This document shows, piece after piece, positions 17,522-55,815 of a stretch of DNA of 64,000 nt. Below the pieces are notes generated by a model that was not told the origin of the DNA, searched no databases, and worked only from the letters and a program-made list of their open reading frames with translations. Within the stretch, counting starts at the first letter, position 1; each line of letters opens with the position of its first letter. The position numbers were made by a program, and so were the translations under genes. Source of the stretch: Verrucomicrobiia bacterium (GTDB lineage: Bacteria > Verrucomicrobiota > Verrucomicrobiia > Palsa-1439); assembly GCA_037441425.1 (NCBI GenBank), contig JBBISF010000004.1, positions 10,215-74,214 of the forward strand, read 5' to 3'.

Positions 17522-17588
17522 TATAGTCAGCTATTAACAAGCGAAGACCAGAAACAAAGACCGAAACAAACACAAGGACATAACACTC

Positions 17589-18218: not shown

Positions 18219-18224
18219 GCGAGT

Positions 18225-38243: not shown

Positions 38244-39151
38244 GGTCGCGGATGATTGTAGTGCGACAGTTTCCAATCCACCACGCTGAGCGGCCGGGCG
38301 ACCTGATCCTTGTAGGTCCGCGCCAGATAAATGCAAATGACCATCAGGAAGAACGCGACGTAGATAAAATCGAGCGCCACCAACCAGTGGAACTTGTCAT
38401 TGATGACCAACGCGATGTTCAGCGCGATCAGCAACGGGAACGCGTACACCGACAACCGCAGCGGGAACGTGGATGAGCTGAGGATGCCGGCCACGGCAAA
38501 GACGATGGCGCGCCAAAGATTGTAGTGGGTCTGGCCGATGATGCGTTTCTGCCGGGAGTAGGGGATGCCTTTGCGTTGGAACCCAACGTGGGCGACTTCG
38601 GTGCGCAGAAACGGGAACGTGGAATGGTTCGCCAAAATCGCGTCGCGCACCGGGGCGGAGACGAGAAAGAACTCCGCCATGTCGAGGACAATATCGCTGT
38701 CGGCGACCAGGCGGTTCAACCGGTAGAACGCCTTGCGCGCGAGTTGCCAGGGAAGCGGTTCAGGACGCTCGTCGCGCCGCCCATAGACGATGTCGTGGCC
38801 GGCTTCCCATTCGGCGATGAACTGGGGAATCATTTCCGGCGGGTCTTCGCAGTCCACGTCAATGATCGCCACCGCCGCGCCGCGCGCGTGGCGCAGACCG
38901 GTGGCGACGCTGGCTTCGTAGCCGAAATTGCGCGAGAGCGTCAGCACCTGCACCTGCGGGTTCTGCTCTCGGAGTTTGAGAATCGCCGACAACGTCCGGT
39001 CGGCGGAGCGGTTGTTGGTGAAGATCAACTCGAAGTCATACCGGTTGGCCAGCGGCGCGAGGGCCTTCTGCAACCGCTCATAAAACAACGGGATGGCTGT
39101 CTCTTCGTTGAACACCGGACAGACGATCGAAATCAACTGACGCTCGCTCAT
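38240..39151 (-). CDS. GtrB/ArnC-like GT2 polyprenol-phosphate glycosyltransferase (two C-terminal TM helices)
   Basis: ISIVCPVFNEE, DVDCEDPPE (DxD). Two TM helices at the C-terminus as in GtrB. ~304 aa. Confidence 0.75.
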   Translation of the reverse strand: MSERQLISIVCPVFNEETAIPLFYERLQKALAPLANRYDFELIFTNNRSADRTLSAILKLREQNPQVQVLTLSRNFGYEASVATGLRHARGAAVAIIDVDCEDPPEMIPQFIAEWEAGHDIVYGRRDERPEPLPWQLARKAFYRLNRLVADSDIVLDMAEFFLVSAPVRDAILANHSTFPFLRTEVAHVGFQRKGIPYSRQKRIIGQTHYNLWRAIVFAVAGILSSSTFPLRLSVYAFPLLIALNIALVINDKFHWLVALDFIYVAFFLMVICIYLARTYKDQVARPLSVVDWKLSHYNHPRP

Positions 39152-39930
39152 GATAGGTGTTGCCGCCACCAGTTTATCGTTTCGCGCAAGCCGGTGTCGA
39201 GATTGTAGCGAGGCCGCCAACCGGTGGCGAGCAACCGGGTGTTATCAGCCACGATAGGCAGCGGGTCGCCGGGAGCGTAGGGGCGCGCGCCAAACTTGAG
39301 CAGTTCCGGTCGTCCGATGATCGCGCCAATCTGACCGGCCAGCGCGCGGACGGTGATCGGCTGGCCGCTGCCGATGTTCACGGCCCCGGTGAGATTGCTT
39401 TCCGCGACGGCGACGATGGCCCGCGCAACATCCTCCACGTGCAAGAAGTCGCGGACCTGTTCGCCGGGGGTTAGTTCTGCCGGTTGGCCGCGCAGGAGTG
39501 ATTGAATGATGTACGGCACCAGCCGTCGCGGGTCTTCGCGCGGACCATATTGGTAGAACAACCGCGGCCAGGCAACTGGCGTGTCGAGTTGCTGGAGCTT
39601 CTCAAAGAGTTCCAGTTTGCATTGCGCGTAGAGCGTGGTGGATTCACGCTCGATACAGGTGCCAATGGCAACAAAACGTTGGGTGTTGACTTCCTGGGCC
39701 AAGCGAAGACTGGCGGTAACCCATTGCTGGTTCAGTGGTGAGTCGAGGTACTTACCGGGTTCGGCGTACCACGCGAGGTGAAGGCAGATATCGAACTGCG
39801 AACGCGGAAAACGGAAACCAGGCGAGAGCAGATCGCGGCCGAGGGTGGTCACTTCGTGACCGGCCTGTTCCAGTACAGCGGCGACGTGGAAACCGATAAA
39901 GCCGGTGGCGCCGGTGAGCAGGACTTTCAT
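39148..39930 (-). CDS. NAD(P)-dependent sugar epimerase/reductase (short RmlD-like 4-ketoreductase candidate)
   Basis: MKVLLTGATGFIGFHV Rossmann N-terminus. 260 aa. Coupled between the RmlC-like gene and the GT2 gene. Confidence 0.65.
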   Translation of the reverse strand: MKVLLTGATGFIGFHVAAVLEQAGHEVTTLGRDLLSPGFRFPRSQFDICLHLAWYAEPGKYLDSPLNQQWVTASLRLAQEVNTQRFVAIGTCIERESTTLYAQCKLELFEKLQQLDTPVAWPRLFYQYGPREDPRRLVPYIIQSLLRGQPAELTPGEQVRDFLHVEDVARAIVAVAESNLTGAVNIGSGQPITVRALAGQIGAIIGRPELLKFGARPYAPGDPLPIVADNTRLLATGWRPRYNLDTGLRETINWWRQHLS

Positions 39931-40436
39931 AGCAACGGCAGAGCTTGATCACGGGCAGAGACAGTCGGGTGGGGGATGGGCCACGGGATGGCCAGCTTGG
40001 GATCGTTCCAGCGGATGCCGCGCGCCAGTTCTGGGAAGTAGAAATTGGACATTTGGTAGAACACCTCGCAGTTGTCGGTGAGACATTGAAAACCATGCGC
40101 GTAGCCGGCCGGCGCGTAGAGTTGGCGGGGAGAATTGGCGGACAATTCAAACGCCTCCCATTTACCGGAGCGCACGTCCGCGATGACGTCCCAGATCGTG
40201 CCGGCAACGCAGCGGATCAGTTTGGTCTCGGGATGCGGCTCGGCTTGGAAGTGCAACCCGCGAATGGCGCCGCGCTGTTTGGTGAGCGTGGTGTTGCACT
40301 GCGGCCAATGGATGTTCAAGTTGTGCTCGGCGAATTCGCGTTCGCAATAGGTCCGGGCGAGGAAACCGCGTTCGTCAGCACGCGGTTCCAGATCAATCAG
40401 CCAGACACCCGGTAGTGACGTGGTGTGAAACTTCAT
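39927..40436 (-). CDS. dTDP/CDP-4-keto-6-deoxyhexose 3,5-epimerase (RmlC-like cupin)
   Basis: [30 protein letters not shown]...GLHFQ...HGF motifs. 169 aa. The ORF-track N-terminal extension is not credible (Arg/Pro-rich). Confidence 0.8.
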   Translation of the reverse strand: MKFHTTSLPGVWLIDLEPRADERGFLARTYCEREFAEHNLNIHWPQCNTTLTKQRGAIRGLHFQAEPHPETKLIRCVAGTIWDVIADVRSGKWEAFELSANSPRQLYAPAGYAHGFQCLTDNCEVFYQMSNFYFPELARGIRWNDPKLAIPWPIPHPTVSARDQALPLL

Positions 40437-41665
40437 ACAACCCGCGGCTCCGGAACGGGGATGATGAACTTGCCGCCGCGTTGTCGGTAGGCGGCTTGTT
40501 GCTGAAGAATCTCGTCGGCAAAGTTCCACGTGAGCAACAGGGTGTGGTCCGGCATCTGCGCCAACAACTGATCGGGGGCGAGGATGGGGATCCGGACACC
40601 CGGCATGTAACGGCCCTGTTTGTGTGGGCTGCGATCCACGACGAACTCGATGGTTTCGCGGCTGATGCCGCAGTAGTTGAGGAGCGTGCTGCCTTTGGCG
40701 GCGGCGCCGTAGGCGGCCAGCCGTTTGCCTTGGTGGCGGAGATCGGCGAGAAACCGGACGAGTTGGGCGCGGAGTTGTTCCACCCGGCGGGCGAAGTCGG
40801 CGAGGGAGTCCAGTCGGTTCACACGCCAAGCCGTTTCCTCGCGCAACAGGAGCGGGACGGATTCCCGGGTGCGTTGGTGGGATTCGCTGTGGACGAATTG
40901 GACGCGAAGTGAACCGCCGTGAATAGGGAGGCGTTCCACATCCAGCAGACGTAATCCGTGGCGCTGGGATAACCGGTCGAGCGCCGTCAGGGAGAAATAG
41001 CAGAGGTGTTCGTGGTAGATGGTGTCGAATTCAACGCGGTCAATGAGGTCTTTGAGGTAGGGAACTTCAAACTGGGCGACGCCTTCGTCTTTGAGCAGGA
41101 GCGCGACACCGCGCATGAGACCGTTGAGGTCGGCGACGTGGGCGAGCACGTTGTTGCCGATGATGACATCGGCCTGCCGGCGTTCGTTGCGCAGCTTGCG
41201 GGCGAGCGGTTCGCCAAAGAATTCGGCCAGGGTGGGGACGCCGCGTTCGGTCGCGACTTGGGCGATGTTGGTGGCCGGCTCAATGCCGAGCACGGGGATA
41301 CCGGCCGCGACAAAATTCTTCAGCAAGTAGCCGTCGTTGCTGGCGATTTCGATGACGAGGCTTTGAGGAGTCAGTTGCCGGGTGGCGATGAGTTTGGCGG
41401 CGCTGTCTTGGGCGTGCGCCAACATGGCGGCGGACGTGGAGGAGAAATAGAGGTATTCGCGAAACAGGATTTCCGGCGGCACGATCTCGGTGATTTGGAC
41501 AAGCGTGCAGTCGGGGCAAAACGCGAGGTCGAGAGGATAAACCGGCTCCGGGCGCGTCAGTTGGGCGGGGGTGAGATAGGAATTGGCGAGCGGCGTTTTG
41601 CCGAGTGACAGAACAACTTGTAGATTCTGTTTGCCGCAGGAACGACAGGTGTGACCGGTGGTCAT
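40433..41665 (-). CDS. NDP-hexose C-methyltransferase (TylC3-like: zinc-ribbon + class I MTase + C-methyltransferase C-terminal domain)
   Basis: CRSCG...CPDC zinc-binding N-domain, SAM-binding core, ~410 aa. ATGA overlaps on both sides. Confidence 0.7.
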
Positions 41666-42642
41666 GCGGTCGTCCCCAAGAACTGCCGGTACCAATCAAT
41701 CGTGCGCCGCAATCCGTCGTCGAGGGTGAACAATGGTTTCCAGTCGAGCACCCGGCGCGCCTTCGCCGCGCTGAGGTATTGCTGGCGGATTTCATGGATC
41801 GCTTCGTTGCGAACCTCCGGCTGAAGCGGGGAATTCATCAGGCCGAGGATGCGTTTCACGAGGTCCAGCACGGTGATCTGGATTTCGTTGGAGAAGTTGA
41901 ATGCCTGGCCGCGGAGCTTCGGGTTCTCGCCCAATTGTTCGGCCAACAACATATAGGCCGCCGCGCCGTCCTCGATGTAGAAGTAGTCGCGCACGAACTG
42001 ACCATCGGAGCGGATGAGGGGGCGTTCGCCGCGCAACACCGAGCGGATGGTGCCGGGTACAATGCGGTTCCAATTGAGATCGCCGCCGCCGAAGAAGTTC
42101 CCGCAGCGTGTGACGGCTACCGGCAAGTTGTAGGTAACGGCGTACGCCTGGGCGATGAGATCGCTGCAGGACTTGCTCACGTCGTAGGGATGCCGGCCTT
42201 GCAACGGCGTGTTCTCATCGTAGGGAAGTTTTTCCTGATCGCCATACGCTTTGTCGGATGACGCAAGCACGATCTGTTGGACGGTCGGGCTGCGCCGGCA
42301 AGCCTCCAGCAGCGACCATGTGCCGCCGATGTTGGTTTCAAAGGTGGAGACCGGATTGCGGTTGGCAATGGTGACGATTGTCTGCGCCGCGAGATGGATG
42401 ACCGTGGCGATTTCATATTCGCCAAGGATGCGTTCCAACAAGGTCTGATCCGTGATGTCGCCCCGGACGGTTTTCACTTGGTGAATGAGACCGGAGCGGA
42501 CGAGTTCGCTCTGCGGCACCCAGTCCCGGACGAGACAGACGACATCGGCACCGGCTTTCTGGAGGCGCGGTACGAGCCAACTCCCGACGAGACCGGTGGC
42601 ACCGGTGACAAACGTAGGACGATCACGCCAGAAGTTGTTCAT
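41662..42642 (-). CDS. rfbG: CDP-glucose 4,6-dehydratase
   Basis: [23 protein letters not shown] is a characteristic RfbG N-terminus. SDR-extended fold with YDVSK catalytic motif. Confidence 0.8.
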
Positions 42643-42645
42643 GGT

Positions 42646-43416
42646 TCAGCTCCACACCTTCCACGGGGCTTGGCTGCTTTGCCAGAGTGATTCGAGCGTC
42701 CGGGTGTCGCGCAACGTGTCCATGCACTGCCAGAAGTCATTGTGCCGGTAGGCGACGAGTTGCCGGTCGGCAGCCAATTTTTCCAACGGCTCGCGTTCAA
42801 AGACGGTCTGATCGCCGGCAATGTAGTCGAGCACTTGGGGTTCGAGGACGAAGTAACCACCGTTGATCCAGCCTTCGCCGATCTGCGGTTTTTCGGTGAA
42901 CTCTTTGACGAAATCGCCGTCGAATGTCAGCCCGCCAAACCGGGCGGGTGGCCGGACGGCGGTAATGGTCGCAAGTTTGCCGTGGCGACGATGGAATTCG
43001 AATAACCGGCGGAGATCAACGTTGGTCACGCCGTCGCCATAGGTCATGAGGAACGTTTCCTTACCGAGCAAACCGGCGAGACATTTGAGGCGGCCACCGG
43101 TTTGGGTTTGGTCGCCGGTATCCAGCAGGTGCACGAGCCAGTCTTCGCGTTCCTGAGCGTGCGTTTCCACGCGGCCTTTGCCGAGGTGGACAGTGAGATT
43201 ACTCTCCAGTTGATAGGACTCAATAAAGTAGCGTTTGATATGTTCGCCCTTATAGCCGAGCGCGAGAGCAAACTCTTTGAATCCGTGGTGGGCGTAGCTT
43301 TTCATGATATGCCACAGGATCGGCCGACCGCCGATCTCCACCATGGGTTTGGGTTTGATTTCGGTCTGTTCGGCCAAGCGCGTACCCAACCCACCGCATA
43401 GAATGACGACCTTCAT
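42646..43416 (-). CDS. rfbF: Glucose-1-phosphate cytidylyltransferase
   Basis: MKVVILCGGLGTRL...KPKPMVEIGGRPILWHIM. ~257 aa from ATG 43416. Confidence 0.85.
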   Translation of the reverse strand: MKVVILCGGLGTRLAEQTEIKPKPMVEIGGRPILWHIMKSYAHHGFKEFALALGYKGEHIKRYFIESYQLESNLTVHLGKGRVETHAQEREDWLVHLLDTGDQTQTGGRLKCLAGLLGKETFLMTYGDGVTNVDLRRLFEFHRRHGKLATITAVRPPARFGGLTFDGDFVKEFTEKPQIGEGWINGGYFVLEPQVLDYIAGDQTVFEREPLEKLAADRQLVAYRHNDFWQCMDTLRDTRTLESLWQSSQAPWKVWS

Positions 43417-43560
43417 TGGCAAATTAAGAAAGCCGGAGGCGCGGCGTCTTTGTTGATGTGGGTGCCACAACGAAGTTGGTAACCAGTTCTCACGGTTTTG
43501 CCAGCAGGTTTCTAGCATTCGGCTGGCGCTCGGTCAAGAATGGGACGCTTTACGATTTAA

Positions 43561-44428: not shown

Positions 44429-45097
44429 GTGTCCAGCATCCTCACAACAGCAACTTTGCAGGTGCGGGTCCTTGAGGTGCGCCCGCTGACCGAAGCGACC
44501 TATGTGCTGCGATTGGAACGGCAGGGTGTGGCGTTTCGGGCCGGGCAATCCATCACGCTGGGTGTCAGCCGGATGCGAGTCAATCGCGAATACACAATTT
44601 ATTCGGGGGAACAGGACGATTACATCGACGTGCTGATCCGAGAGATTCAAGGCGGCACGGTTTCAGTAGCCTTACGCCGCTGTCCCCCGGGTGAACTGCT
44701 GGAGTGCAACGGCCCGTTCGGTTCATTTGTCATTCCAGAGCCATCAGATCGGTTGCGAAAATACCTTTTTATCGCTTCCGGCACTGGCATTGCCCCATAC
44801 CATTCAATGGTCCGGACCCATCCTGAGCTTGATTACCGGATCATCCACGGGATTCGCAATGCGCGGGAACAGTATGACCTTGCGGACTACGACCATGCCC
44901 GTTATGTCGCTTGTGTGACCGGTGAACCCGGTGGCGATTTTTCCGGGCGCGTCACCGCCTATCTCCACCAACACCCGGTCGATCCCGGCAGCCACTGCTA
45001 TTTGTGCGGCAACGGTCGCATGTTGACGGCCGGCTACGAACTGCTCCGCGAACAAGGCGTGCCCAGCGACCAGATTCATCTGGAGGCGTTTTTCTGA
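44429..45097 (+). CDS. Ferredoxin-NADP reductase-like FAD/NAD(P)-binding oxidoreductase
   Basis: REYTIYS (RxYS FAD motif), FIASGTGIAP NAD(P) motif. 222 aa. GTG start. Confidence 0.65.
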   Translation: MSSILTTATLQVRVLEVRPLTEATYVLRLERQGVAFRAGQSITLGVSRMRVNREYTIYSGEQDDYIDVLIREIQGGTVSVALRRCPPGELLECNGPFGSFVIPEPSDRLRKYLFIASGTGIAPYHSMVRTHPELDYRIIHGIRNAREQYDLADYDHARYVACVTGEPGGDFSGRVTAYLHQHPVDPGSHCYLCGNGRMLTAGYELLREQGVPSDQIHLEAFF

Positions 45098-46653
45098 TGC
45101 GCGTGGCCATTTCGTATCCGCCGATAGTTAACGAGCTGGGCCAGAAGGCCATGGTCTCGCAGAACCGCAACGTCCAGTATTTCAAGACGCCGACGTATCT
45201 GTTGCCGGTGGTGCATGCGCAAGCGGCCACCTGGTTGCGTGATCTCGGTCACGAGGTGTACTGGGACGACGGCAATGCTCAATTGAAAACCTTTGCGCAG
45301 TGGTACCGCGATTTGCTGGCATGGCAACCGGACCTAGTGGTGTTCGAGAGCACAACCCCGGTCATGAAGTTTTACTGGCGGCTGATCCAGCGGCTCAAAC
45401 AAGACCGACCGGATATCATGATCGTTATGACCGGCTATCACTCGATGCGGATGCCGTTCGAGACGATGAACAAGTGTCCTGTGGACATTGTCTTGCGCAG
45501 TAATCACGTCGATTTCGTGCTCAGCAAATTGGTGCCGTTTATTACCACGCACCCGGACTGGCGCACCACCTGCGCTCTTGAAGGATTGTTTATTCGCACG
45601 GCCAACGGTGAGCAACGGCAGACCGGCAGTTTCAAGCAGATTGAGCCGCTCGACAATTCGCCTGATGTGGATCGTGACCTGGTCCAATGGCAGCGGTACG
45701 CGTACGAGAACGGCAATTTTCTGCGAACGCCCGGCACCTACGCCACGAGCGTTGTCCGCGATTGCACATTCGGTAAGTGCACCTTCTGCCGCTATAACGG
45801 TCCTGATCTTACGTTTTCGATGCGATCGGTCCAGCGCAGTCTCGACGAATACCAGCGACTCATCGAGCAATACGGCGTCCGCGAAATCTTTGATGATTCT
45901 GGCGTGTGGTACCGCGGCAAGGAAGCCCGCGAGTTTTGCGAGGGACTCATCGCCCGCGGGCTGCACCGAAAGGGTTGCTACTTCGGCCTGAACACACGGT
46001 TTGCCTACCTCGATGAGGAAACCATCCAGCTCATGGGCCAGGCGAATTTCCGGTTCGTGTTGCTTGGCTTGGAAGCGTGCGACGACGAGACGCTCAGCCG
46101 GTTGAACAAGGGGTATCAAGTTGTGGACGTTGAACAGAATCTGCGCTGGTTCACCAAGTACGGTCTGCATCCGCACCTGACCGTCATGGTCGGTTACTAT
46201 TGGCAGACGCAGCAACAACTGGATCAGACCGTCCAGACGGTCCGGCAATTTATGTTCCAGGGCCTCGCGCGGACGCTCCAAGTCACCATCTGTACCCCGC
46301 TGGATTTCACCCCTTACCACCAAGAATGCTTGGACCAGGGCGTTCTGCTCACGGACGACTACGACGACTTCGACATGAGCAAAGTCATCGTGAAAACGCC
46401 GATCCCACACGAGCGGCATTACGAGGCCATCCGTCAGATGTACGGGATTGCCTTTCATCCGAAATTTCTCGCACGGCAAATTGCTTTCCTTGCCTCAGGT
46501 CGCATTCGGGATTGGGAATTCTTGTTCACTTACGGTTGGCGAGCTTTACGCCGCGTGCGCCAACACATCTTCAACTTGACTCAGGCCCGCCAACTTCAAA
46601 AACCGGCCAGCGGTGATGCTCACCACGCCGACGAACCCGCGTTGAACTCGTGA
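45097..46653 (+). CDS. B12-binding (class B) radical SAM protein
   Basis: N-terminal cobalamin-binding-like domain. Cys cluster CTFGKCTFC (Cx4Cx2C variant). ~518 aa. TGATG overlap with the reductase gene. Confidence 0.7.
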   Translation: MRVAISYPPIVNELGQKAMVSQNRNVQYFKTPTYLLPVVHAQAATWLRDLGHEVYWDDGNAQLKTFAQWYRDLLAWQPDLVVFESTTPVMKFYWRLIQRLKQDRPDIMIVMTGYHSMRMPFETMNKCPVDIVLRSNHVDFVLSKLVPFITTHPDWRTTCALEGLFIRTANGEQRQTGSFKQIEPLDNSPDVDRDLVQWQRYAYENGNFLRTPGTYATSVVRDCTFGKCTFCRYNGPDLTFSMRSVQRSLDEYQRLIEQYGVREIFDDSGVWYRGKEAREFCEGLIARGLHRKGCYFGLNTRFAYLDEETIQLMGQANFRFVLLGLEACDDETLSRLNKGYQVVDVEQNLRWFTKYGLHPHLTVMVGYYWQTQQQLDQTVQTVRQFMFQGLARTLQVTICTPLDFTPYHQECLDQGVLLTDDYDDFDMSKVIVKTPIPHERHYEAIRQMYGIAFHPKFLARQIAFLASGRIRDWEFLFTYGWRALRRVRQHIFNLTQARQLQKPASGDAHHADEPALNS

Positions 46654-47663
46654 CGTCGTCCGGGGCATCCATCCTCATCGCCCTGCCGGCCGCGACGCGC
46701 TATTTGGACGAGTCCCTCGCCGCGCTCGAGCGCCAGACGGTTCGCGATTTTGAAGTCATCCTCTTGCCGGACGCGCCTTCGGGTCGGTCGTGGCCCGCGT
46801 GGTGCCGGGAAGTCCCCACCGGTCGGCGGCGCCCGGCCGAAAAACGCAATCGGGGTATCGCGGAAGCGCACGGGGCCATCATTGCGTTTCTCGATGACGA
46901 CGCGTGGCCGGTTGACCGGTGGCTGGAAGCGGCGCTGCCGCACTTCAATGATCCCGGCGTTGTCGGCGTCGGTGGTCCCGGCGCGACGCCGGCGCATGAT
47001 CCCTTCTGGGCACAACTCAGCGGGCGGGTATATGAAAATGTACTGGTTTCAGGTGGATACCGGTGTCGGTACCGGGCCGGCTCGGCGCGGGACGTGGACG
47101 ATTGGCCAAGCTGCAATTTCTTTGTGCGCACGGCAGTCGTCCGGCGGCTCCACGGTTTCCGCACCGACTATTGGCCCGGCGAAGACACCTACCTGTGTTT
47201 GGAACTGACGCAGACCCTCCGCCGGCGCATCGTCTATGAACCGCAGGCGCTGGTTTATCATCACCGGCGGGCGCTGTTTCTGCCGCATCTCCGGCAGATC
47301 GGCCGGTACGGACTGCATCGCGGCTATTTTGCCCGGCATTTTCCCAGTACCTCGCGGCGACTGAGTTACCTGATGCCTTCGCTATTGGTGTTGGGATTGG
47401 CGGGGGGCGCACTCGGCAGCGCGTTCCTGCCGGGGCTGCGCGGGCCCTATGTTACCGGGGTGGGATGTTACCTGTTGGCCACACTGGGCGCGGCGGTCTC
47501 GTCACGCCCGCACGTTTGGCTCTTCACCTGGTTCGGCATCATGGCGACGCATGTGGTGTACGGCGTGCGGTTCCTGATGGGGTATTTCTCCACCCGACTG
47601 CCCGGCAGCGTGCAGCGATTTGATCACCCATCAGAAGACGACCCGAATTTCGACCGTAAATAG
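46650..47663 (+). CDS. GT2-family glycosyltransferase with C-terminal membrane anchor
   Basis: ILLPD, FLDDDAWP (DxD), C-terminal TM helices. GTGA overlap with the radical SAM gene. Confidence 0.7.
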   Translation: MTSSGASILIALPAATRYLDESLAALERQTVRDFEVILLPDAPSGRSWPAWCREVPTGRRRPAEKRNRGIAEAHGAIIAFLDDDAWPVDRWLEAALPHFNDPGVVGVGGPGATPAHDPFWAQLSGRVYENVLVSGGYRCRYRAGSARDVDDWPSCNFFVRTAVVRRLHGFRTDYWPGEDTYLCLELTQTLRRRIVYEPQALVYHHRRALFLPHLRQIGRYGLHRGYFARHFPSTSRRLSYLMPSLLVLGLAGGALGSAFLPGLRGPYVTGVGCYLLATLGAAVSSRPHVWLFTWFGIMATHVVYGVRFLMGYFSTRLPGSVQRFDHPSEDDPNFDRK

Positions 47664-48457
47664 ACTATGCCGACGGCGAACCGCAGGCAGTACAACGCCA
47701 GCACGTGGATTGGACGGGAGAGGAAACGCTTCCATTTTCCCTGTTCGAGAAACACTCCAAAGTAACGGTACCAAAGCCCAAATTGTTTCTTAGTAATCGC
47801 GTCGCGCCCCCACTTGGTAAAGTACGTCGCGAAGTTCTGCGCGTAGTAAGCTTTCTTGCGGATGTACCGGCGAAAATCAAACTTGCCTTCGTTGTGCAGT
47901 AGATGTGTGTCGGCCAACGCAAATCGCCCCCTTACAGCCAGTCGCCGGTCGAGATCCCAGTCTTCCGGCCCACACAGGTTGGGGTCATAACCGCCGATCT
48001 CAACGAATGTTGCCCGGTGGATGAAGCGCACGGCGTCAATCGGCGTCGTGTTATAAAACGACCGTTCAAAATTCTGCACGCTGATCCAGAAGCTTGTGCC
48101 CACGATCTTTTCCGGGATGAACGCGGCGATTACATCCGGTACCGCCACGACGGCTAGGCATGCGCGTACTAGCGTTGGCGCAACCATCATGTCGGCGTCG
48201 AGAAACAGCAGAAACTCCCCGGTGGCTTGTGCCGCGCCAAAATTGCGCTGCGCCGAGCGTTCGGGACCGATCTGATAGAAGCGAACACCATATTTGCTAG
48301 CGACGGCAGACGTGTCGTCGGTGGAGAAGTTGTCCACGACGATGATTTCCAGTTGTTCCTGTGGGTAATCCAGAGCGCGAACTGCGGCGAGGCAGTCGTC
48401 GAGAAACCGTCCCGCATTGCGCGTGGGAACAATGATGCCAACCCGCGGTTCAGCCAT
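47624..48457 (-). CDS. GT2-family glycosyltransferase
   Basis: VGIIVPTRNAGRFL, VVDNFSTDDT, LFLDADMM motifs. Confidence 0.7.
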   Translation of the reverse strand: MAEPRVGIIVPTRNAGRFLDDCLAAVRALDYPQEQLEIIVVDNFSTDDTSAVASKYGVRFYQIGPERSAQRNFGAAQATGEFLLFLDADMMVAPTLVRACLAVVAVPDVIAAFIPEKIVGTSFWISVQNFERSFYNTTPIDAVRFIHRATFVEIGGYDPNLCGPEDWDLDRRLAVRGRFALADTHLLHNEGKFDFRRYIRKKAYYAQNFATYFTKWGRDAITKKQFGLWYRYFGVFLEQGKWKRFLSRPIHVLALYCLRFAVGIVYLRSKFGSSSDG

Positions 48458-48484
48458 GAACACAGCGAATACAATCCCGAGGCC

Positions 48485-51387: not shown

Positions 51388-53835
51388 TCAGGCGGACCGT
51401 CGCTTGTCGGCTACGGCTTGTAGCCCAGCAACACCAACGATGACCGATGCGAAACCGAGCGCAACCAAGTGGATGTAGATTGCCGTGGCTGGGCTTTGGT
51501 AACGAACCACTACTTCAGAGTGTCCGGCGGGAACAGGGACCGCATAAAGAATCAGGTCGGCGCGCACGGGCGCGACCGGGTGTCCGTTGACCGCTGCGTG
51601 CCAGTTTGCGTCGTAGCGGTCGTTGATCAATAGATAACCGGGCGTGGGGGCTTCGACCGCGGCTTCGATCCGGTTACCGGAGTAGCGTTGCAGATGAACG
51701 GTTCCCACCGCGTTGCCGGTCCCGCTCGGGGCGGTTGGGTGGTCGAGTAACAGCGTGCGGCGCGGGTCCCAATCGGCGGACGCTAGTCGGCGACTCAGTT
51801 CAGACTGATTATCGAAAACTTCGATTCCCGGCACAAATGTCGCCTTGGACAGGTAGTTCTTCAGAGTCACCACCGCGTGGGTCGCCTGCCAGGTATCGGT
51901 AACAGCGATCACCGTCAGGTCGTCTAATTTCGTGCCTTGCGCCTGGAAGAGCGCCACGCCGGTGATGTTGGTCTGCAATTCGGTCACGCGCTGAAGCTGG
52001 CTTAAGCCGGCAGCCGGTAGTGCCAGATACTTGACGCCGGCCAGTTGCCAGAGACGGATCGGATTGCTCTCCAACGCACTGAAGAACGCGAGGTAGTTGT
52101 CGGGCATTCGCGACGAGGCGGGAATATCAAGGGATGCAATCCGGTAGTACGGAAACACCGCGCTCAGGTAGTAGTGCAACAGACCATCTTGCGCGAGGAG
52201 TTTGACGCGCGCCGGTTCTGGATCGGCGCGGAGGGTTTCGATCAGCGGGTTGCTCCGGTACGCCGCGCGGAAGTTGAACGGTTCCAGATAGTGCGTGTGC
52301 ACCCAAAACATCTGGGCGACAACCAAGCCCGCCAACACGGGAATGCGGGCTGACGGTTTCGCCGCCACAAACCAGAGCAGCCCCACGACCGCCACAGTCA
52401 CCCCGGCGGCAAGACGGACAACACCCAGCGCGGCGGCAATTTCCGCCCGGCTATACCCTTGCGGCGCCAGCGTCTGCGGCAACCACGAATCCGCTCCCAG
52501 TGCCGCCAACAACACCAGGCCCGCCGCCGCGCTGACACCGGTCAGCAACCAGCGCCACCGTTGATTGGGTGAACCGTCCAGCCACATCTGCACACCATAG
52601 GCCGCCAGCACGGTCAGACAAAATCCGCCCGGCACCATGAATTTCAGCGGATTGCGCCACGTACCCATGTACGGGAGTTTGTAGAACAACCAGTAGAATG
52701 GCGCATACCGACCCAGCGCCAACAGGTAGCAGATGACCAAAGCCACGGTGAAGAACCGACCGTAGAACCGGCTATCGGTGTCGAGTAACTCCTCTGTGGT
52801 TGCATCCTTTTGGGCGGGCCGATTTCTGCGCCATAGCATCCACGCCCCGGCCAAGGCGAACACCAAAGCCACGGTGCCGAAGCTGTTGGCACTGATGGAA
52901 AAATTGCGGAATCCTTGATGGTCTTGCGCCCAGCCGGCTTGTCGGCCAATCCGTCCCCAGTACGGCCCATCCGGATCACCGCTGCGCCAGCCGAAAAAGC
53001 CGGGCACGAGATAATCCAAAGTCTCCGCGAACGGCAGACTCCACTGCGTCGCCCAATTCCAATGCTCTTGAGGGTTATCGCTGGCCACCTGTTTGACGCC
53101 GGTGATTTGCGTTTCAAGCATCGTTTGGAGCGTCGGCAACGCCACCAGTGCTGACATTCCGATAACCGCCAGCAACCGGCCGCCAAGCATCAGACTTTCC
53201 CGTCGCTCCCGCCGTAGCGCACGACCGATACCGGCCAGGAACAACGCGCCGACCAGCAAGGCCACCAACATTCCATGGTCGGGCTGGAGACAGATGTTCA
53301 TCCCTAAAATTGCGCCACAGACAATCGCCGCCCACCAATTCCGACTACGGATCGCCCGCAGCGCGGCACCGACGGCCAACGGCATCAGAACTAGCAGCGC
53401 CATGGGGCCAAAATGACCTGAGTAGATATTGCTAAGCAACGGTCCCTGCCACCCGTAGATCAACCCGCCGATGACGGCTGCCGGGCGCGCCAGTTTCAAT
53501 TCGCGCAACAGCCAATAGGCCGTCCCGACAGCCAGTGCGCCGCAGAGCGGATAAAATAGCGTGAAAAACCACCACACCGGCAAGTGCGCGAGGAGTGAAG
53601 TCGGCGTCAACGGTACCGGCAAATTCGGAAACCCGAGCCAATAATCATAACTCATGAACCCTTGCGGCGGGAACTGAAACCGCATCGCGCGATAGCTGCC
53701 CGGTGTGACGTCATTGGTCAGCGGAACGAATTGGCCGCCGGAGAAAAAGTAGCAGAGCCACAACTGCAACAGAAGCGTTCCGCCAGCAGCCAGTAACAGC
53801 CAGCGATTATTATGTTGCCCAACCGGTTTCTTCAC
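51388..53835 (-). CDS. Large polytopic membrane protein, YfhO-like GT-C glycosyltransferase candidate (copy 2)
   Basis: 815 aa. Many N-terminal TM helices, large soluble domain, terminal TM. 4-nt overlap with the upstream GT2. Confidence 0.45.
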   Translation of the reverse strand: MKKPVGQHNNRWLLLAAGGTLLLQLWLCYFFSGGQFVPLTNDVTPGSYRAMRFQFPPQGFMSYDYWLGFPNLPVPLTPTSLLAHLPVWWFFTLFYPLCGALAVGTAYWLLRELKLARPAAVIGGLIYGWQGPLLSNIYSGHFGPMALLVLMPLAVGAALRAIRSRNWWAAIVCGAILGMNICLQPDHGMLVALLVGALFLAGIGRALRRERRESLMLGGRLLAVIGMSALVALPTLQTMLETQITGVKQVASDNPQEHWNWATQWSLPFAETLDYLVPGFFGWRSGDPDGPYWGRIGRQAGWAQDHQGFRNFSISANSFGTVALVFALAGAWMLWRRNRPAQKDATTEELLDTDSRFYGRFFTVALVICYLLALGRYAPFYWLFYKLPYMGTWRNPLKFMVPGGFCLTVLAAYGVQMWLDGSPNQRWRWLLTGVSAAAGLVLLAALGADSWLPQTLAPQGYSRAEIAAALGVVRLAAGVTVAVVGLLWFVAAKPSARIPVLAGLVVAQMFWVHTHYLEPFNFRAAYRSNPLIETLRADPEPARVKLLAQDGLLHYYLSAVFPYYRIASLDIPASSRMPDNYLAFFSALESNPIRLWQLAGVKYLALPAAGLSQLQRVTELQTNITGVALFQAQGTKLDDLTVIAVTDTWQATHAVVTLKNYLSKATFVPGIEVFDNQSELSRRLASADWDPRRTLLLDHPTAPSGTGNAVGTVHLQRYSGNRIEAAVEAPTPGYLLINDRYDANWHAAVNGHPVAPVRADLILYAVPVPAGHSEVVVRYQSPATAIYIHLVALGFASVIVGVAGLQAVADKRRSA

Positions 53836-54545
53836 TTGTTAACCTCGCTCCGTCGAACCGCGCGCCACGTGCGCCAGGTGTCGCGGAAAATCTCGGCAAT
53901 CGCGCGCCAGCCCACGGCGCTGCCAAATTTCATCGTGTGATTGACCACCACCGGCGCCTCGGCCATGCGGGCGCCCAGTTTCACCAAGTGGACCAGCAAT
54001 TCAAGATCGAAGGCAAAGCCGGTCAGCTTGGTGTTGGCCAGCGCTTCGGTCAATAGTTCGCGCCGGACCAGTTTCAGACCCGTCTGCGTGTCGCGGACCG
54101 GCAACCCGAACAGACATTTCACCAGCCGGTAGTAGCCCCAACTGTATAGCCGCCGCAGCGCGGGATACTCGACGTTGCTGTCCGGGTGCATCTTGCTGCC
54201 GATGACGGCGTCGGCGTTGTGGGTTTTCTGCAGAATCAGGAACAACTCGATTTGCTCCGGTGGCAGGTCTAAGTCGGCGTCGAGAAAGATCACAAACTCG
54301 CCCCGCGCGGCGCGGGTGCCCTGGCGCAACGCCTCGCCCTTGCCGGCGTGCGGCAGATGCAGCACCCGGACTTCGGGAAGCTCGGCCGCCGCCGCGTCCA
54401 GCGCGGCCGGTGCGTCGTCCGTGCTGCCGTCGTCCACCGCCAGAATCTCAAATGGCCCCAAGGGACGTAACACGCCGGCCGTGTGCCGGAGATTCACCAA
54501 CACGTTCGGGCCTTCATTATAGACGGGCATGACGACGGACAACAT
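53832..54545 (-). CDS. GT2 polyprenol-phosphate sugar synthase (DPM1/CsbB-like, soluble)
   Basis: LSVVMPVYNEG, AVDDGSTDD, IFLDADLD motifs. 237 aa. Confidence 0.75.
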   Translation of the reverse strand: MLSVVMPVYNEGPNVLVNLRHTAGVLRPLGPFEILAVDDGSTDDAPAALDAAAAELPEVRVLHLPHAGKGEALRQGTRAARGEFVIFLDADLDLPPEQIELFLILQKTHNADAVIGSKMHPDSNVEYPALRRLYSWGYYRLVKCLFGLPVRDTQTGLKLVRRELLTEALANTKLTGFAFDLELLVHLVKLGARMAEAPVVVNHTMKFGSAVGWRAIAEIFRDTWRTWRAVRRSEVNK

Positions 54546-54558
54546 GGCTGTACCTATT

Positions 54559-55815
54559 CTATGAACCAGTCTTGACGGTTGCTGTCAACTGCCGCGTTGA
54601 ACGGGTCAACAAAGCCAACCCCGCCAACAGAGTCACTGCGCCGCAACCCCCAAGCTGGATCAGCCGCACTAATTCCGTGGCGGTTCCGCCGTACCACATC
54701 AGGACGCTGCTGTAGATGATCGCAAGCACGCCATAGCCGAGGCTCAACCCCAACCGGCGCGAGGCCAGCGCGTACGCGCCGGCGGCTTGCAGCAGTCCGA
54801 TGCCGAACATGGCCCGCGCAAATGCCGGCAACAACGCCGTCACCGGCTCTTCCACGCGTCCCAGCAACAGCCGGCACAGGAACGCATCGCTGTGTATCAC
54901 CGCCACCGCGCCCACCGCCAGCAGGCCCACGTAGAGCAACAACAACAGTTGCGCCGTCCGATCAGTGCGTTGTCGACCGGAACGCGCCGTGAACCAGACC
55001 ACCAGAACGGGGCTTGCCAGATACACCACCGCGCGACCGAACAACCCGGCCGCGCTGTACACGCCCAGCGCCGGCCCGTCCAAATGACGTTGCGCAATCA
55101 GCAGGTCCGATTGGAGGAACAGGAACTGCCCGCCCACGACCGCGAAGGCCGCCACCAGGAACAACAGAAACTCCCGTTCCATAACCGGCTGGATTGAGCC
55201 GGACAACCGGACCTGACCCCCATCGCGGCGCAACACCAAGCCCACCGCCAAAAGACTGCCCAGCAGCGAAGCCACGATGCCGCTTTCCGCCCGGGGCCAA
55301 ACCGCCACGATGCTGACGCCCAGCAAACGCATGGCGACGTTGGCCAGGCCCAGCCCGGCCAGAAAAGTGAATTGCCCCAGGCCCGCGCACCAGGCATTCA
55401 TCAAGCCGCCCCAGATTCCGGCCAAGGCCATCGCCAAAACCAACCCGGCCACCGTCACGCGTGGCACCTGAAAGAACCGCGCGGCCGGGTAGAGCACCAC
55501 CAACGCGAGCAGTGACACCACCACCGTGACGCGCAGCAAAAACGCGGCGCTGGCGGTCTTCAATTCGGCAACCCGCGGTTGGTCATCCACCGCTTGATGC
55601 CGGGCCAGATAATGGGTCACGGCCTGATTGGCGGCGGCCATCCCCAGCGACAACATGGCGGCCAGACTGAGCGCGGCGTTGAGGTACCCGAATTCGGCGA
55701 GCGGCAACAGGCGGCCCATCAACGCCTGAAACACATAATTGCCAAGCGCGCCCAACAAACTGGCCGCCGTCAGCACCGCGCTGCTGCGCCACCAGAATCG
55801 TTGTTCCCCAGCCAT
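54559..55815 (-). CDS. MOP-superfamily (Wzx-like) polysaccharide/lipid-linked oligosaccharide flippase
   Basis: ~12 TM helices throughout. Start taken at M46 (55815) of the track ORF. Confidence 0.65.
   Translation of the reverse strand: MAGEQRFWWRSSAVLTAASLLGALGNYVFQALMGRLLPLAEFGYLNAALSLAAMLSLGMAAANQAVTHYLARHQAVDDQPRVAELKTASAAFLLRVTVVVSLLALVVLYPAARFFQVPRVTVAGLVLAMALAGIWGGLMNAWCAGLGQFTFLAGLGLANVAMRLLGVSIVAVWPRAESGIVASLLGSLLAVGLVLRRDGGQVRLSGSIQPVMEREFLLFLVAAFAVVGGQFLFLQSDLLIAQRHLDGPALGVYSAAGLFGRAVVYLASPVLVVWFTARSGRQRTDRTAQLLLLLYVGLLAVGAVAVIHSDAFLCRLLLGRVEEPVTALLPAFARAMFGIGLLQAAGAYALASRRLGLSLGYGVLAIIYSSVLMWYGGTATELVRLIQLGGCGAVTLLAGLALLTRSTRQLTATVKTGS

What the first reader, a model, noticed from the sequence alone, without database searches (positions are those of the whole stretch)
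51388..55815. Flippase - DPM1-like GT2 - YfhO-like GT-C operon (three-component extracytoplasmic glycosylation module), duplicated in spirit at 34.9-39.2 kb
A Wzx-like MOP flippase, a soluble polyprenol-P sugar synthase and an 815-aa GT-C-like protein are on one strand, with a 4-nt overlap between the last two. This is the arrangement of CsbB/GtcA/YfhO (LTA glycosylation in Firmicutes) and GtrA/B/C (O-antigen glucosylation). Those systems use a small 4-TM GtrA-type flippase and sugars such as UDP-Glc/GlcNAc; here the flippase is full-size Wzx-like. A second GT-C candidate (34928-37357) sits beside a second Und-P GT2 (38240-39151), so two different sugars may be added by the same logic.
Basis: inference. 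Interest (0 to 1): 0.65.

Follow-up and report, generated by a model that had tools for sequence, protein, structure and literature searches.

The report
Three-gene periplasmic sugar-adding module
Three adjacent genes in a Verrucomicrobia-type genome very probably load a sugar onto a membrane lipid, flip it across the inner membrane and attach it to a cell-envelope molecule; this is a known kind of system, so the finding is real but fairly ordinary.

Summary
On the minus strand lie a 418-aa MOP/Wzx-family membrane protein (54559-55815), a 237-aa TM-less GT2 (53832-54545) and an 815-aa membrane protein (51388-53835). The gaps are 13 nt and a 4-nt GTGA overlap.

The 815-aa protein passes Pfam YfhO. 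It aligns over its full length with YfhO proteins (hhalign E 5e-65), and its model (pLDDT 91.7) matches only GT-C enzymes such as AftD, ArnT and PglB. The GT2 aligns across the catalytic domain of Dol-P-mannose synthase and ArnC. The flippase family hits Polysacc_synt, never MatE.

Comparative data link the three genes. In 79 related PVC loci, 15 carry all three and 7 more carry flippase plus YfhO, in several gene orders. In two MAGs the GT2 and flippase are one fused ORF.

The three-component reading is therefore supported. Sugar and acceptor remain unknown.

The Wzx-size flippase is not new: GacI/J/K/L in streptococci, AglD/R/S in Haloferax and the Citrobacter MATE system are precedents.

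The second GT-C (34928-37357) is a distant YfhO paralogue. Its pairing with the 303-aa GT2 is not conserved in two relatives.

Verdict: a new member of a known kind, of modest interest.

The parts
54559..55815 (-). MOP-superfamily, Wzx/PST-type lipid-linked-sugar flippase candidate (418 aa, about 12 TM helices)
   Evidence: Hydropathy gives about 12 TM segments. The window protein has no Pfam hit itself, but 13 of 18 family members hit PF01943 and none hit MatE or MurJ. The AF2 model has pLDDT 89.3. Foldseek finds the MOP fold; best TM-score is to WzxE 9g9p (0.69/0.70), with MATE and MurJ at similar E-values. A family HMM finds homologues beside YfhO-family genes in 22 of 79 loci.
53832..54545 (-). 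Soluble GT2, candidate polyprenyl-phosphate sugar synthase (237 aa, no TM helix)
   Evidence: PF00535, E 7e-29. No TM segment is predicted. It aligns with P. furiosus Dol-P-Man synthase 5mlz over residues 2-226, and with ArnC 9hwj. Its motif LDADLDLPPEQI corresponds to DADLQHPPE and DADLQNPPEEI in those enzymes. It reaches no NCBIfam equivalog cut-off. It is the best conserved of the three genes (66-72% identity in L001, L003, L004, L082, L084).
51388..53835 (-). YfhO-family GT-C glycosyltransferase (815 aa): N-terminal multi-TM domain, about 270-aa extracytoplasmic beta-rich domain, C-terminal TM helix
   Evidence: PF09586 scores 34.2 bits against a cut-off of 28.5. hhalign against 21 PF09586-positive proteins gives E 4.8e-65 over 721 columns. 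The AF2 model has pLDDT 91.7 and pTM 0.91. Foldseek PDB matches are AftD, ArnT (TMt 0.60), PglB, STT3, AftA, EmbB and Pmt4. Invariant residues include D42 in the first loop after TM1, D186 and W393-R-N-P-x-K398.
34928..37357 (+). Second YfhO-like GT-C (809 aa), a distant paralogue of the 815-aa protein
   Evidence: PF09586 scores 28.2 bits, just below the 28.5 cut-off. hhalign against the YfhO set gives E 3.9e-45 over 728 columns. hhalign against the 815-aa family gives E 6.7e-32 at 14% identity. Its start overlaps the end of the GT9 gene, an arrangement also seen in L085.
38240..39151 (-). Membrane-anchored GT2 of the PgfS/ArnC/GtrB type (303 aa, C-terminal TM helices), candidate second polyprenyl-phosphate sugar synthase
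   Evidence: PF00535. NCBIfam PgfS scores 163 bits (E 8e-48, below cut-off) and ArnC 81 bits. Two to three C-terminal TM segments are predicted. It lies in one minus-strand gene string with the CDP-sugar genes. It is absent from the equivalent position in L086 and from L085.
39148..43518 (-). CDP-sugar pathway genes upstream of the 303-aa GT2: glucose-1-phosphate cytidylyltransferase, CDP-glucose 4,6-dehydratase-like, C-methyltransferase, 3,5-epimerase-like, reductase/epimerase
   Evidence: TIGR02623 scores 369 bits, above its cut-off. TIGR02622 scores 214 bits, below its cut-off. Methyltransf_14/13, dTDP_sugar_isom and Epimerase domains are present. The whole block is missing between the YfhO-like gene and the FNR gene in L085.
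44429..48463 (.). Conserved companion block: FAD/NAD reductase (44429-45097 +), B12-binding radical SAM (45094-46653 +), GT2 with a C-terminal hydrophobic region (46650-47663 +), GT2 (47624-48463 -)
   Evidence: Pfam assignments are and NCBIfam. The same block directly follows the 809-aa homologue in L085. A similar block lies between the GT2 and the YfhO gene in L082. Homologues of the 337-aa GT2 lie directly beside 815-family genes in at least 14 loci.
33832..34956 (+). GT9 (heptosyltransferase family) gene whose end overlaps the start of the 809-aa YfhO-like gene
   Evidence: PF01075, E 9e-24. The same order FkbM-methyltransferase, GT9, YfhO-like occurs in L085. This hints at an LPS-core-related acceptor, which is inference only.

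Best explanation
The three genes form an operon-like module for extracytoplasmic glycosylation with a lipid-linked donor. The proposed steps, and their status, are as follows.

1. The soluble GT2 transfers a sugar from a nucleotide sugar to polyprenyl (undecaprenyl) phosphate at the cytoplasmic face of the inner membrane. This is inferred from family resemblance.
2. The Wzx/PST-type MOP protein moves the lipid-linked sugar to the periplasmic face. This is inferred from family, linkage and fusion.
3. The YfhO-family GT-C enzyme transfers the sugar to an acceptor in the periplasm. Its invariant Asp42 lies in the first extracytoplasmic loop, and it carries a large periplasmic domain. The fold and family are shown; the activity is inferred.

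The acceptor is most likely a glycan made by the neighbouring 33-51 kb cluster, such as an LPS-core, O-chain or exopolysaccharide-type polymer of this diderm organism. A Ser/Thr-rich envelope protein is the alternative, because streptococcal YfhO-family enzymes glycosylate proteins.

The second YfhO-like protein and the PgfS-like GT2, fed by the CDP-sugar operon, probably add a different sugar by the same logic. The single MOP flippase of the region may serve both.
For: Gene anatomy:
- The three genes are co-oriented, with a 13-nt gap and a 4-nt overlap.

GT-C enzyme:
- It passes Pfam YfhO and shows full-length profile homology to YfhO proteins.
- The high-confidence model matches only GT-C enzymes.
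- Its architecture matches published B. subtilis YfhO: many TM helices, then a large loop before a last TM helix (PMC5836110).

GT2:
- It has no TM helix.
- It aligns through the whole catalytic domain of Dol-P-Man synthase and shares the DADLxxPPE motif with DPMS and ArnC.

Flippase:
- The family is PST/Wzx by sequence and has the MOP fold.

Linkage:
- Among 79 genome loci found through the GT-C, 15 carry GT2, flippase and GT-C on one strand, and 7 more carry flippase plus GT-C.
- Several gene orders occur: F-G-Y, G-Y-F, Y-GF, G-F-x-Y and F-G...Y.
- The trio is kept while adjacent genes differ.
- In L054 and L061 the GT2 (residues 2-206) and flippase (256-660) are one ORF directly after the GT-C gene.
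- The distant flippase homologues tested get no Pfam hit yet match this family's HMM at 1e-20 to 1e-27. They are therefore a dedicated lineage.

Wider context:
- No initiating phosphoglycosyltransferase, Wzy, WaaL, ABC exporter or GtrA-type protein was found in the window.
- Systems of the same design have been described (PMC8035078, 10.1101/180810, PMC11127046).
Against: - No biochemical evidence exists for any step, and the sugar and acceptor are unknown.
- The GT2 reaches no curated equivalog threshold. It lacks the C-terminal membrane anchor of GtrB/CsbB, and no GacJ-like helper gene is present.
- Fold comparison cannot separate Wzx from MATE or MurJ, and the window flippase itself has no Pfam hit.
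- 54 of 79 related loci show neither partner within about 8 kb.
- The most frequent immediate neighbour of this GT-C family is a different GT2, the 337-aa type. The true donor-making enzyme could be that one.
- Wzx proteins classically move Und-PP-oligosaccharides, and this is the only flippase in a 23-kb glycan cluster.
Confidence: 0.62

Rival explanations
1. The genes are neighbours within one large polysaccharide locus but do not form a dedicated trio. The Wzx-type protein flips the Und-PP-linked repeat unit made by the 33-51 kb cluster. The 237-aa GT2 is an ordinary cytoplasmic elongating glycosyltransferase. The YfhO-like enzyme takes its lipid-linked donor from another GT2, either the PgfS-like 303-aa enzyme or the 337-aa enzyme.
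For: This is the only flippase in a cluster holding at least six glycosyltransferases and sugar-nucleotide genes. PF01943 family members are classically Und-PP-oligosaccharide flippases. Homologues of the 337-aa GT2 sit immediately next to the GT-C family gene in at least 14 loci, more often than the 237-aa type. The PgfS-like GT2 has the canonical membrane-anchored architecture.
Against: No initiating phosphoglycosyltransferase, Wzy or WaaL is present in the 64 kb. The flippase lineage travels with the 237-type GT2 and the GT-C through several gene orders, and is fused to that GT2 in two MAGs. The trio is conserved at 46-72% identity while the adjoining glycan genes are replaced. In Methylacidiphilales loci the flippase-GT2 pair sits among housekeeping genes, not in a polysaccharide locus.
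Confidence: 0.2
2. This is an oligosaccharyltransferase-like pathway. The 237-aa GT2 starts a glycan on polyprenyl monophosphate, and the neighbouring GT2, GT2, GT4, methyltransferase and radical-SAM enzymes extend and modify it. The Wzx-size flippase exports the lipid-linked oligosaccharide, and the YfhO-like GT-C transfers it en bloc to a protein or lipid acceptor. Haloferax AglJ/G/I/E followed by AglB works in this way.
For: A full-size Wzx-type flippase is used rather than a small GtrA or SMR type. No phosphoglycosyltransferase, polymerase or ligase is present. The GT2/B12-rSAM block is persistently associated with both YfhO-like families. The 337-aa GT2 weakly resembles AglG, which extends a Dol-P-linked sugar. 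The GT-C model also matches PglB and STT3.
Against: All characterised YfhO-family enzymes use monosaccharide donors (PMC5836110, PMC12041528). The similarity to AglG is weak (35 bits). The trio also occurs without those extra transferases (L046, L070, L010, L018). Nothing in the data speaks directly to donor length.
Confidence: 0.13
3. The 418-aa protein is a MATE-type small-molecule exporter that is unrelated in function to its neighbours, and the adjacency is fortuitous.
For: Foldseek ranks human MATE1 and other MATE transporters at E-values similar to WzxE. The window protein has no Pfam hit of its own.
Against: No family member hits PF01554 MatE, while 13 of 18 hit Polysacc_synt. Linkage to the GT2 and GT-C recurs, and the protein is fused to the GT2 in two MAGs. 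A MATE-family protein also serves as the proposed Und-P-sugar flippase in Citrobacter (PMC11127046), so even this classification would not imply drug export.
Confidence: 0.03

Closest known systems
[quoted passage not shown]
   Same: Both use a cytoplasmic GT-A enzyme without its own membrane anchor, a Wzx-type flippase and a GT-C transferase, with a Und-P-monosaccharide as proposed donor (PMC8035078 Fig. 2b; bioRxiv 10.1101/180810).
   Different: GacL is a PMT_2-type GT-C, not YfhO-type. GacI needs the small membrane protein GacJ, and no such gene lies in or beside this operon. The host is a monoderm Firmicute, whereas this is a diderm PVC bacterium. No detectable orthology was tested or claimed.
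CsbB/GtcA/YfhO (B. subtilis, S. aureus, L. monocytogenes teichoic acid GlcNAc-ylation) and PgfS/PgfM1/PgfM2 and GtrB/PgtC2 (streptococcal protein O-glycosylation)
   Same: The GT-C belongs to the same YfhO family and has the same architecture. The GT2 gene is directly coupled to the GT-C gene, as csbB-yfhO is (PMC5836110, PMC12041528). The window's 303-aa GT2 resembles PgfS (163 bits).
   Different: In those systems the GT2 is anchored by C-terminal TM helices, and the flippase is the small 4-TM GtcA/GtrA type encoded elsewhere. Sequence identity to PF09586 proteins is only about 18% at profile level.
Citrobacter youngae O1/O2 three-component pentofuranose system (polyprenyl-phosphoribose synthase, MATE-family flippase, GT136 GT-C)
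   Same: It is a Gram-negative system placed in a glycan locus, with a full-size MOP-superfamily protein as the proposed flippase of a Und-P-sugar and a GT-C enzyme for periplasmic transfer (PMC11127046).
   Different: The donor synthase there is a phosphoribosyltransferase, not a GT2. The flippase is MATE rather than PST/Wzx by sequence, and the GT-C family differs.
Haloferax volcanii AglD / AglR / AglS (final mannose of the S-layer N-glycan)
   Same: It combines a GT2 Dol-P-mannose synthase, a Wzx-like protein proposed to flip Dol-P-mannose, and a multi-TM Dol-P-Man-dependent transferase acting outside the membrane. This rests on my own knowledge of the Agl literature; PMC3871713 reviews the pathway.
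   Different: The system is archaeal and uses a dolichol carrier. AglS is not a YfhO-family protein, and the genes are part of an N-glycosylation pathway with AglB.
GtrA/GtrB/Gtr* (O-antigen glucosylation) and ArnC/ArnEF/ArnT (lipid A Ara4N)
   Same: The three-step logic is the same. The GT2 here is most similar in PDB sequence searches to ArnC, DPMS and GtrB. ArnT gives the best target-normalised structural match to the GT-C model (TMt 0.60).
   Different: Those systems use small GtrA or SMR-type flippases and membrane-anchored GT2 enzymes. Their GT-C enzymes lack the YfhO C-terminal domain and terminal TM helix.

Membership tests
YfhO family (Pfam PF09586), GT-C glycosyltransferases | Score at or above the Pfam gathering threshold | tested here: met
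   The 815-aa protein scores 34.2 bits against 28.5, with the best stretch only at the C-terminal residues 713-783. The 809-aa protein scores 28.2 bits, just below threshold.
YfhO family (Pfam PF09586), GT-C glycosyltransferases | Homology over the whole length, not only the C-terminal domain, to proteins that are PF09586 members | tested here: met
   hhalign of the 815 family against 21 proteins that all hit PF09586 gives probability 100% and E 4.8e-65 over 721 columns. The 809 family gives E 3.9e-45 over 728 columns.
YfhO family (Pfam PF09586), GT-C glycosyltransferases | Architecture: about 13 TM helices with a large extracytoplasmic region between the last two (B. subtilis YfhO, PMC5836110) | tested here: met
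   The model shows a helical bundle over residues 11-514, a beta-rich domain over 515-783 and a terminal helix over 784-814. Hydropathy gives 10 N-terminal segments plus one C-terminal segment.
GT-C fold (GT-C_A class) | Structural similarity to solved GT-C enzymes | tested here: met
GT-C fold (GT-C_A class) | Conserved acidic residue in the first extracytoplasmic loop | tested here: met
   D42 is invariant in 30 sequences and aligns with the conserved D of the YfhO set. The 809 family has E at that column. A catalytic role is not testable here.
GT-C fold (GT-C_A class) | Uses a polyprenyl-phosphate-linked sugar donor outside the membrane | not testable with these tools
   This needs enzymology or mutant lipid analysis.
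Polyprenyl-phosphate glycosyltransferases of GT2 (DPM1 / GtrB / ArnC / CsbB type) | GT2 GT-A domain with a DxD motif in the DADLQxPPE context, alignable through the DPMS catalytic domain | tested here: met
   PF00535, E 7e-29. 5mlz aligns over residues 2-226 and ArnC 9hwj over 2-165. The motif LDADLDLPPEQI has D in place of Q.
Polyprenyl-phosphate glycosyltransferases of GT2 (DPM1 / GtrB / ArnC / CsbB type) | Reaches a curated equivalog threshold that would name the sugar | tested here: not met
   The best NCBIfam scores (EpsD 60, ArnC 55, PpgS 41 bits) are far below their cut-offs of 370-529. The sugar is therefore unknown.
Polyprenyl-phosphate glycosyltransferases of GT2 (DPM1 / GtrB / ArnC / CsbB type) | C-terminal TM anchor (GtrB/CsbB/ArnC subtype) | tested here: not met
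   No TM segment is predicted in the 237-aa protein. The 303-aa GT2 has 2-3. The 237-aa enzyme therefore resembles the anchor-less GacI / human DPM1 subtype.
Wzx / PST family of the MOP superfamily (Pfam PF01943) | Pfam Polysacc_synt match | tested here: inconclusive
   The window protein has no hit at E <= 0.1. 13 of 18 close homologues (37-67% identity) hit PF01943 with best E 1.9e-9, and none hit MatE or MurJ.
Wzx / PST family of the MOP superfamily (Pfam PF01943) | 12-TM MOP fold | tested here: met
   The model has pLDDT 89.3. WzxE 9g9p gives TM 0.69/0.70 at 19% identity, while MATE and MurJ structures match at similar E-values, so the fold does not assign the subfamily.
Wzx / PST family of the MOP superfamily (Pfam PF01943) | Translocates a lipid-linked sugar | not testable with these tools
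   Support is only indirect, from linkage and fusion with the GT2.
Three-component (multi-component) transmembrane glycosylation system | GT-A donor synthase, flippase and GT-C encoded together and co-inherited | tested here: met
   The window shows operon-like spacing. Of 79 related loci, 15 have all three on one strand and 7 more have flippase plus GT-C, in several orders. Two loci carry GT2-flippase fusions.
Three-component (multi-component) transmembrane glycosylation system | A defined acceptor that loses one sugar when any component is removed | not testable with these tools
   No cultured, genetically tractable host was identified. The window comes from an uncultured Verrucomicrobiota-like genome: the nearest loci are Verrucomicrobia MAGs.

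The most novel reading that the evidence does not exclude
The PVC-wide trio, together with its recurrent companions (two further GT2 enzymes, a GT4, methyltransferases and a B12-radical-SAM enzyme), may be a bacterial pathway that assembles an oligosaccharide on polyprenyl monophosphate. A dedicated Wzx-type flippase, sometimes fused to the initiating GT2, would export it, and a YfhO-type GT-C would transfer it en bloc. That would be an archaeal-Agl-like oligosaccharyltransferase route in diderm bacteria, using a GT-C family so far known only for monosaccharide transfer.
Probability: 0.12. Interest if true: 0.7.

Novelty: new member of a known kind. Interest (0 to 1): 0.33.

Why it matters
The finding adds a diderm, PVC-superphylum branch to the YfhO-type multi-component glycosylation systems, which have been studied almost only in Firmicutes. 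It also defines a dedicated lineage of Wzx-like proteins that co-inherits with a small soluble GT2 and a YfhO-type GT-C.

The natural GT2-flippase fusion proteins seen in two MAGs may be useful. Flipping of polyprenyl-phosphate sugars has never been shown directly for any GtrA, Wzx or MATE candidate, and a fused synthase-flippase would be a convenient object for reconstitution.

For the organism itself, the module predicts at least one, and probably two, periplasmically added sugars on an envelope glycan or glycoprotein.

Tried and rejected
- A profile of the 815-aa family found no PDB chain by sequence, and the flippase found none either.
- The 30-sequence alignment was too diverse for the genome scan. 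An 18-sequence subset worked.
- A first tblastn census suggested the flippase was linked only in the four closest loci, and I nearly concluded that the trio was clade-restricted. An HMM of the flippase family overturned this.
- My first GT2 HMM was contaminated by over-long ORF calls, giving spurious hits on the argG antisense strand. It was rebuilt from trimmed sequences, with control scores of 45 and 22 bits for the window's other GT2s.
- In L010 the 438-aa ORF upstream of the YfhO gene is not a flippase. The real, truncated flippase lies beside the GT2 about 6 kb away.
- A search for a GtrA-like small 4-TM protein, a phosphoglycosyltransferase, Wzy, WaaL or an ABC exporter in the window found none.
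- I considered naming the sugar from neighbouring sugar-nucleotide genes and rejected it. The genes next to the trio differ between the window, L001/L002, L003 and L084.
- The exact flippase protein (P0067) could not be traced to a contig, so the source organism is inferred only from the nearest loci.

Full report
OBSERVATION

- 54559-55815: 418 aa. The longest ORF extends to 55950, but the ATG at 55815 gives a product identical in sequence and length to database protein P0067.
- 53832-54545: 237 aa.
- 51388-53835: 815 aa.

The first two genes are 13 nt apart. The GT2 stop and the start of the 815-aa gene overlap in GTGA. An argininosuccinate synthase gene lies divergently upstream. A methyltransferase gene converges on the 3' end.

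The window has about 60% G+C. It also carries BamA, Skp and LpxD genes, so the organism is a diderm with LPS. The nearest related loci are Verrucomicrobiota MAGs.

THE 815-AA PROTEIN IS A YfhO-FAMILY GT-C ENZYME

It passes the Pfam YfhO gathering score, 34.2 against 28.5 bits. The best matching stretch, however, is only the C-terminal 70 residues. I therefore tested the rest of the protein in three ways.

1. About 30 full-length homologues (24-72% identity) were aligned. A profile-profile comparison with 21 proteins that all hit PF09586 gave probability 100% and E 4.8e-65 over 721 columns, from the first TM helix to the last.

2. An AlphaFold model built on that alignment is confident (pLDDT 91.7, pTM 0.91). 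It shows a helical membrane domain (residues 11-514), a beta-rich domain (515-783) and a terminal helix (784-814). B. subtilis YfhO is described with the same layout: 13 TM helices and a large loop between the last two (PMC5836110).

3. Foldseek against the PDB returned 24 matches at E <= 0.001, and all are GT-C enzymes. They include AftD, ArnT (target-normalised TM 0.60), PglB, STT3, AftA, EmbB and Pmt4.

Invariant residues include D42 in the loop after TM1, D186, and a W-R-N-P-x-K motif at 393-398. D42 aligns with the conserved Asp of the YfhO set.

THE GT2

The 237-aa protein is a GT2 (PF00535, E 7e-29) with no predicted TM helix. Among solved structures its best sequence matches are ArnC, P. 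furiosus Dol-P-mannose synthase (aligned over residues 2-226) and GtrB. It carries LDADLDLPPEQI where DPMS has DADLQHPPE and ArnC has DADLQNPPEEI. No NCBIfam equivalog threshold is approached, so the sugar cannot be named.

THE FLIPPASE

The window protein has no Pfam hit of its own. However, 13 of its 18 close relatives hit PF01943 Polysacc_synt, and none hits MatE or MurJ. The model (pLDDT 89.3) has the MOP fold. WzxE gives the highest TM-scores (0.69/0.70), but MATE and MurJ structures match with similar E-values, so fold alone does not assign the subfamily.

ARE THE THREE GENES FUNCTIONALLY TIED?

A genome scan with the GT-C family returned 134 matches. The 79 loci kept are almost all from Verrucomicrobiota, Kiritimatiellia and Lentisphaerota.

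Plain tblastn found the full trio only in the closest loci, at 48% identity or more, each beside argG. An HMM of the flippase family changed that picture.
- 22 of the 79 loci have a flippase homologue near the GT-C gene.
- 15 of these also have a 237-type GT2. It scores 90-107 bits in distant loci, against 45 and 22 bits for the window's other GT2s.
- All of these genes lie on the GT-C strand.

The gene orders differ between loci:

| Order (F = flippase, G = GT2, Y = GT-C) | Loci |
|---|---|
| F-G-Y | window, L001-L004, L084 |
| G-Y-F | L046, L070 |
| G-F-x-Y | seven Kiritimatiellia loci |
| F-G, then about 5 kb of housekeeping genes, then Y | L010, L018 |
| F-G, inverted block, Y | L082 |
| F-Y | L040, L076 |
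| Y-F | L069 |

In L054 and L061 a single ORF of 665-667 aa directly downstream of the GT-C gene contains the GT2 (residues 2-206) and the flippase (256-660). The two distant flippase homologues tested (L046, L034) get no Pfam hit, yet they match this family's HMM at 1e-20 to 1e-27. They therefore belong to a dedicated lineage rather than being generic Wzx proteins.

The genes flanking the trio differ between the window, L001/L002, L003 and L084. Linkage that survives rearrangement, together with a fusion, is the strongest support for the three-component reading. Against it, 54 of 79 loci show neither partner within about 8 kb.

THE WIDER LOCUS AND THE SECOND PAIR

The region 32.9-55.8 kb is one glycan cluster. 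Its genes, in order, are:
- an FkbM methyltransferase
- a GT9
- the 809-aa YfhO-like protein
- a methyltransferase
- the 303-aa GT2
- a CDP-sugar operon: glucose-1-phosphate cytidylyltransferase (above its NCBIfam cut-off), a CDP-glucose 4,6-dehydratase-like protein, a C-methyltransferase, a 3,5-epimerase and a reductase
- a flavin reductase
- a B12-radical-SAM enzyme
- two GT2s
- a GT4
- two methyltransferases
- the trio

The 809-aa protein scores 28.2 bits on PF09586, just below threshold. Its family aligns with the YfhO set at E 3.9e-45 and with the 815-aa family at E 6.7e-32 with 14% identity. The two are therefore old paralogues, not a recent duplication.

The 303-aa GT2 is of the PgfS/ArnC type (163 and 81 bits) and has C-terminal TM helices. 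This is the classical donor-synthase architecture.

Its pairing with the 809-aa gene is not conserved.
- In L085 the 809-aa homologue is followed directly by the reductase, radical-SAM and GT2 genes. The CDP-sugar operon and the 303-aa GT2 are absent.
- In L086 the methyltransferase and CDP-sugar genes are present, but no GT2 lies between them.

Homologues of the 337-aa GT2 (46650-47663), often with the B12-radical-SAM gene, are the most frequent direct neighbours of the 815-aa family, in at least 14 loci. They also follow the 809-aa family in L085. Which GT2 feeds which GT-C is therefore not settled.

No phosphoglycosyltransferase, Wzy, WaaL, ABC exporter or GtrA-type protein was found in the window.

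MECHANISM

The best-supported model has three steps.
1. The soluble GT2 charges undecaprenyl phosphate with a sugar.
2. The Wzx-type protein moves the product across the inner membrane.
3. The YfhO-type GT-C transfers the sugar to a periplasmic acceptor.

What is shown: gene arrangement, family and fold assignments, conserved residues, linkage and fusion.

What is inferred: every catalytic step, the carrier lipid, the sugar and the acceptor. The acceptor is probably a glycan of this cluster. The GT9 gene hints at LPS core. Protein O-glycosylation is the alternative, as for streptococcal PgtC2 and PgfM1/2 (PMC12041528).

There are two main rivals. In the first, the flippase serves the Und-PP repeat unit of the cluster and the 237-aa GT2 is an ordinary elongating enzyme. 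In the second, an oligosaccharide is built on Und-P and transferred en bloc.

COMPARISON WITH KNOWN SYSTEMS AND NOVELTY

The GT-C is a member of the YfhO family that includes CsbB/GtcA/YfhO and Pgf (PMC5836110, PMC12041528).

The particular combination of anchor-less GT-A, Wzx-type flippase and GT-C is the type b system drawn in the Rismondo and Gründling review for GacI/J/K/L (PMC8035078; bioRxiv 10.1101/180810). A MOP-superfamily (MATE) flippase is part of the Citrobacter three-component system (PMC11127046). The archaeal AglD/AglR/AglS set is analogous (own knowledge; reviewed in PMC3871713). A yfhO gene next to an Und-P mannosyltransferase GT2 and a gtrA gene has already been drawn in a Pontiella EPS cluster (PMC7356697).

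What is new is the PVC-wide lineage, its dedicated flippase family and the GT2-flippase fusions.

I rate it a new member of a known kind, with interest about 0.33.

Noticed in passing
L054:10148-12151 (+) and L061:8184-10181 (+): Single ORFs of 667 and 665 aa join a 237-type GT2 (residues 2-206) to a flippase of this MOP family (residues 256-660). Each lies directly downstream of the YfhO-family gene. The two come from different MAGs (a Verrucomicrobia MAG and a Kiritimatiellales MAG), so an assembly error is unlikely.
   Followed up: partly
window 44429-48463; also L005, L007, L008, L082, L085 and about 10 Kiritimatiellia/Verrucomicrobiota loci: A block of flavin reductase, B12-binding radical SAM, a 337-aa GT2 with a C-terminal hydrophobic region and a further GT2 recurs next to both YfhO-like families. 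The 337-type GT2 is the commonest immediate neighbour of the 815-aa family. Its role is unexplained; it could be a donor synthase, an elongating enzyme or something else.
   Followed up: partly
window 37302-43518 compared with L085:6245-6270: In the relative L085 the 809-aa homologue is followed at once by the reductase and radical-SAM genes. The window's roughly 7-kb minus-strand string (methyltransferase, 303-aa GT2, CDP-sugar pathway) therefore looks like an insertion, or L085 like a deletion, inside a conserved cluster.
   Followed up: partly
window 39927-40829 (-): The mechanical ORF is 300 aa, but only its last 157 aa or so match dTDP-4-dehydrorhamnose 3,5-epimerase. The Arg/Pro-rich N-terminal part overlaps the C-methyltransferase gene (40433-41695) and is probably not translated.
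   Followed up: no
window 40433-41695 (-) and 45094-46653 (+): An NDP-hexose C-methyltransferase (Methyltransf_13/14) and a B12-radical-SAM enzyme lie in one glycan cluster together with five further SAM methyltransferases (32897-33835, 37302-38336, 49729-50526, 50538-51377). This suggests a heavily methylated, possibly branched-chain 6-deoxy sugar glycan.
   Followed up: no
window 43807-44307 (+) and 58439-59047 (+): Two ORFs have no Pfam hit. One is 166 aa and lies between the CDP-sugar operon and the reductase gene. The other is a 202-aa protein with about 4 TM segments, downstream of argG.
   Followed up: no
window 29921-32692 (+): A 923-aa GH63 / MGH1-like glycoside hydrolase lies directly upstream of the glycan cluster.
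   Followed up: no
window 15176-19175 (+): A BamA - Skp(OmpH) - LpxD gene string is present. It is the usual outer-membrane/LPS arrangement and confirms a diderm host.
   Followed up: no
window 51388-53835 vs 54559-55815: The flippase has a 100% identical entry in the protein collection (P0067, NCBI, 75.9-kb contig). The best hit of the adjacent 815-aa protein is only 72% identical, and P0067 could not be traced to a contig. This is probably a property of the database rather than biology.
   Followed up: no
L010:1660-4817 and L018: In Methylacidiphilales MAGs the flippase-GT2 pair and the YfhO-family gene are separated by housekeeping genes (an FAD-linked oxidase and ThiG). There the module is not part of a polysaccharide locus, which suggests a conserved housekeeping envelope modification.
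   Followed up: partly
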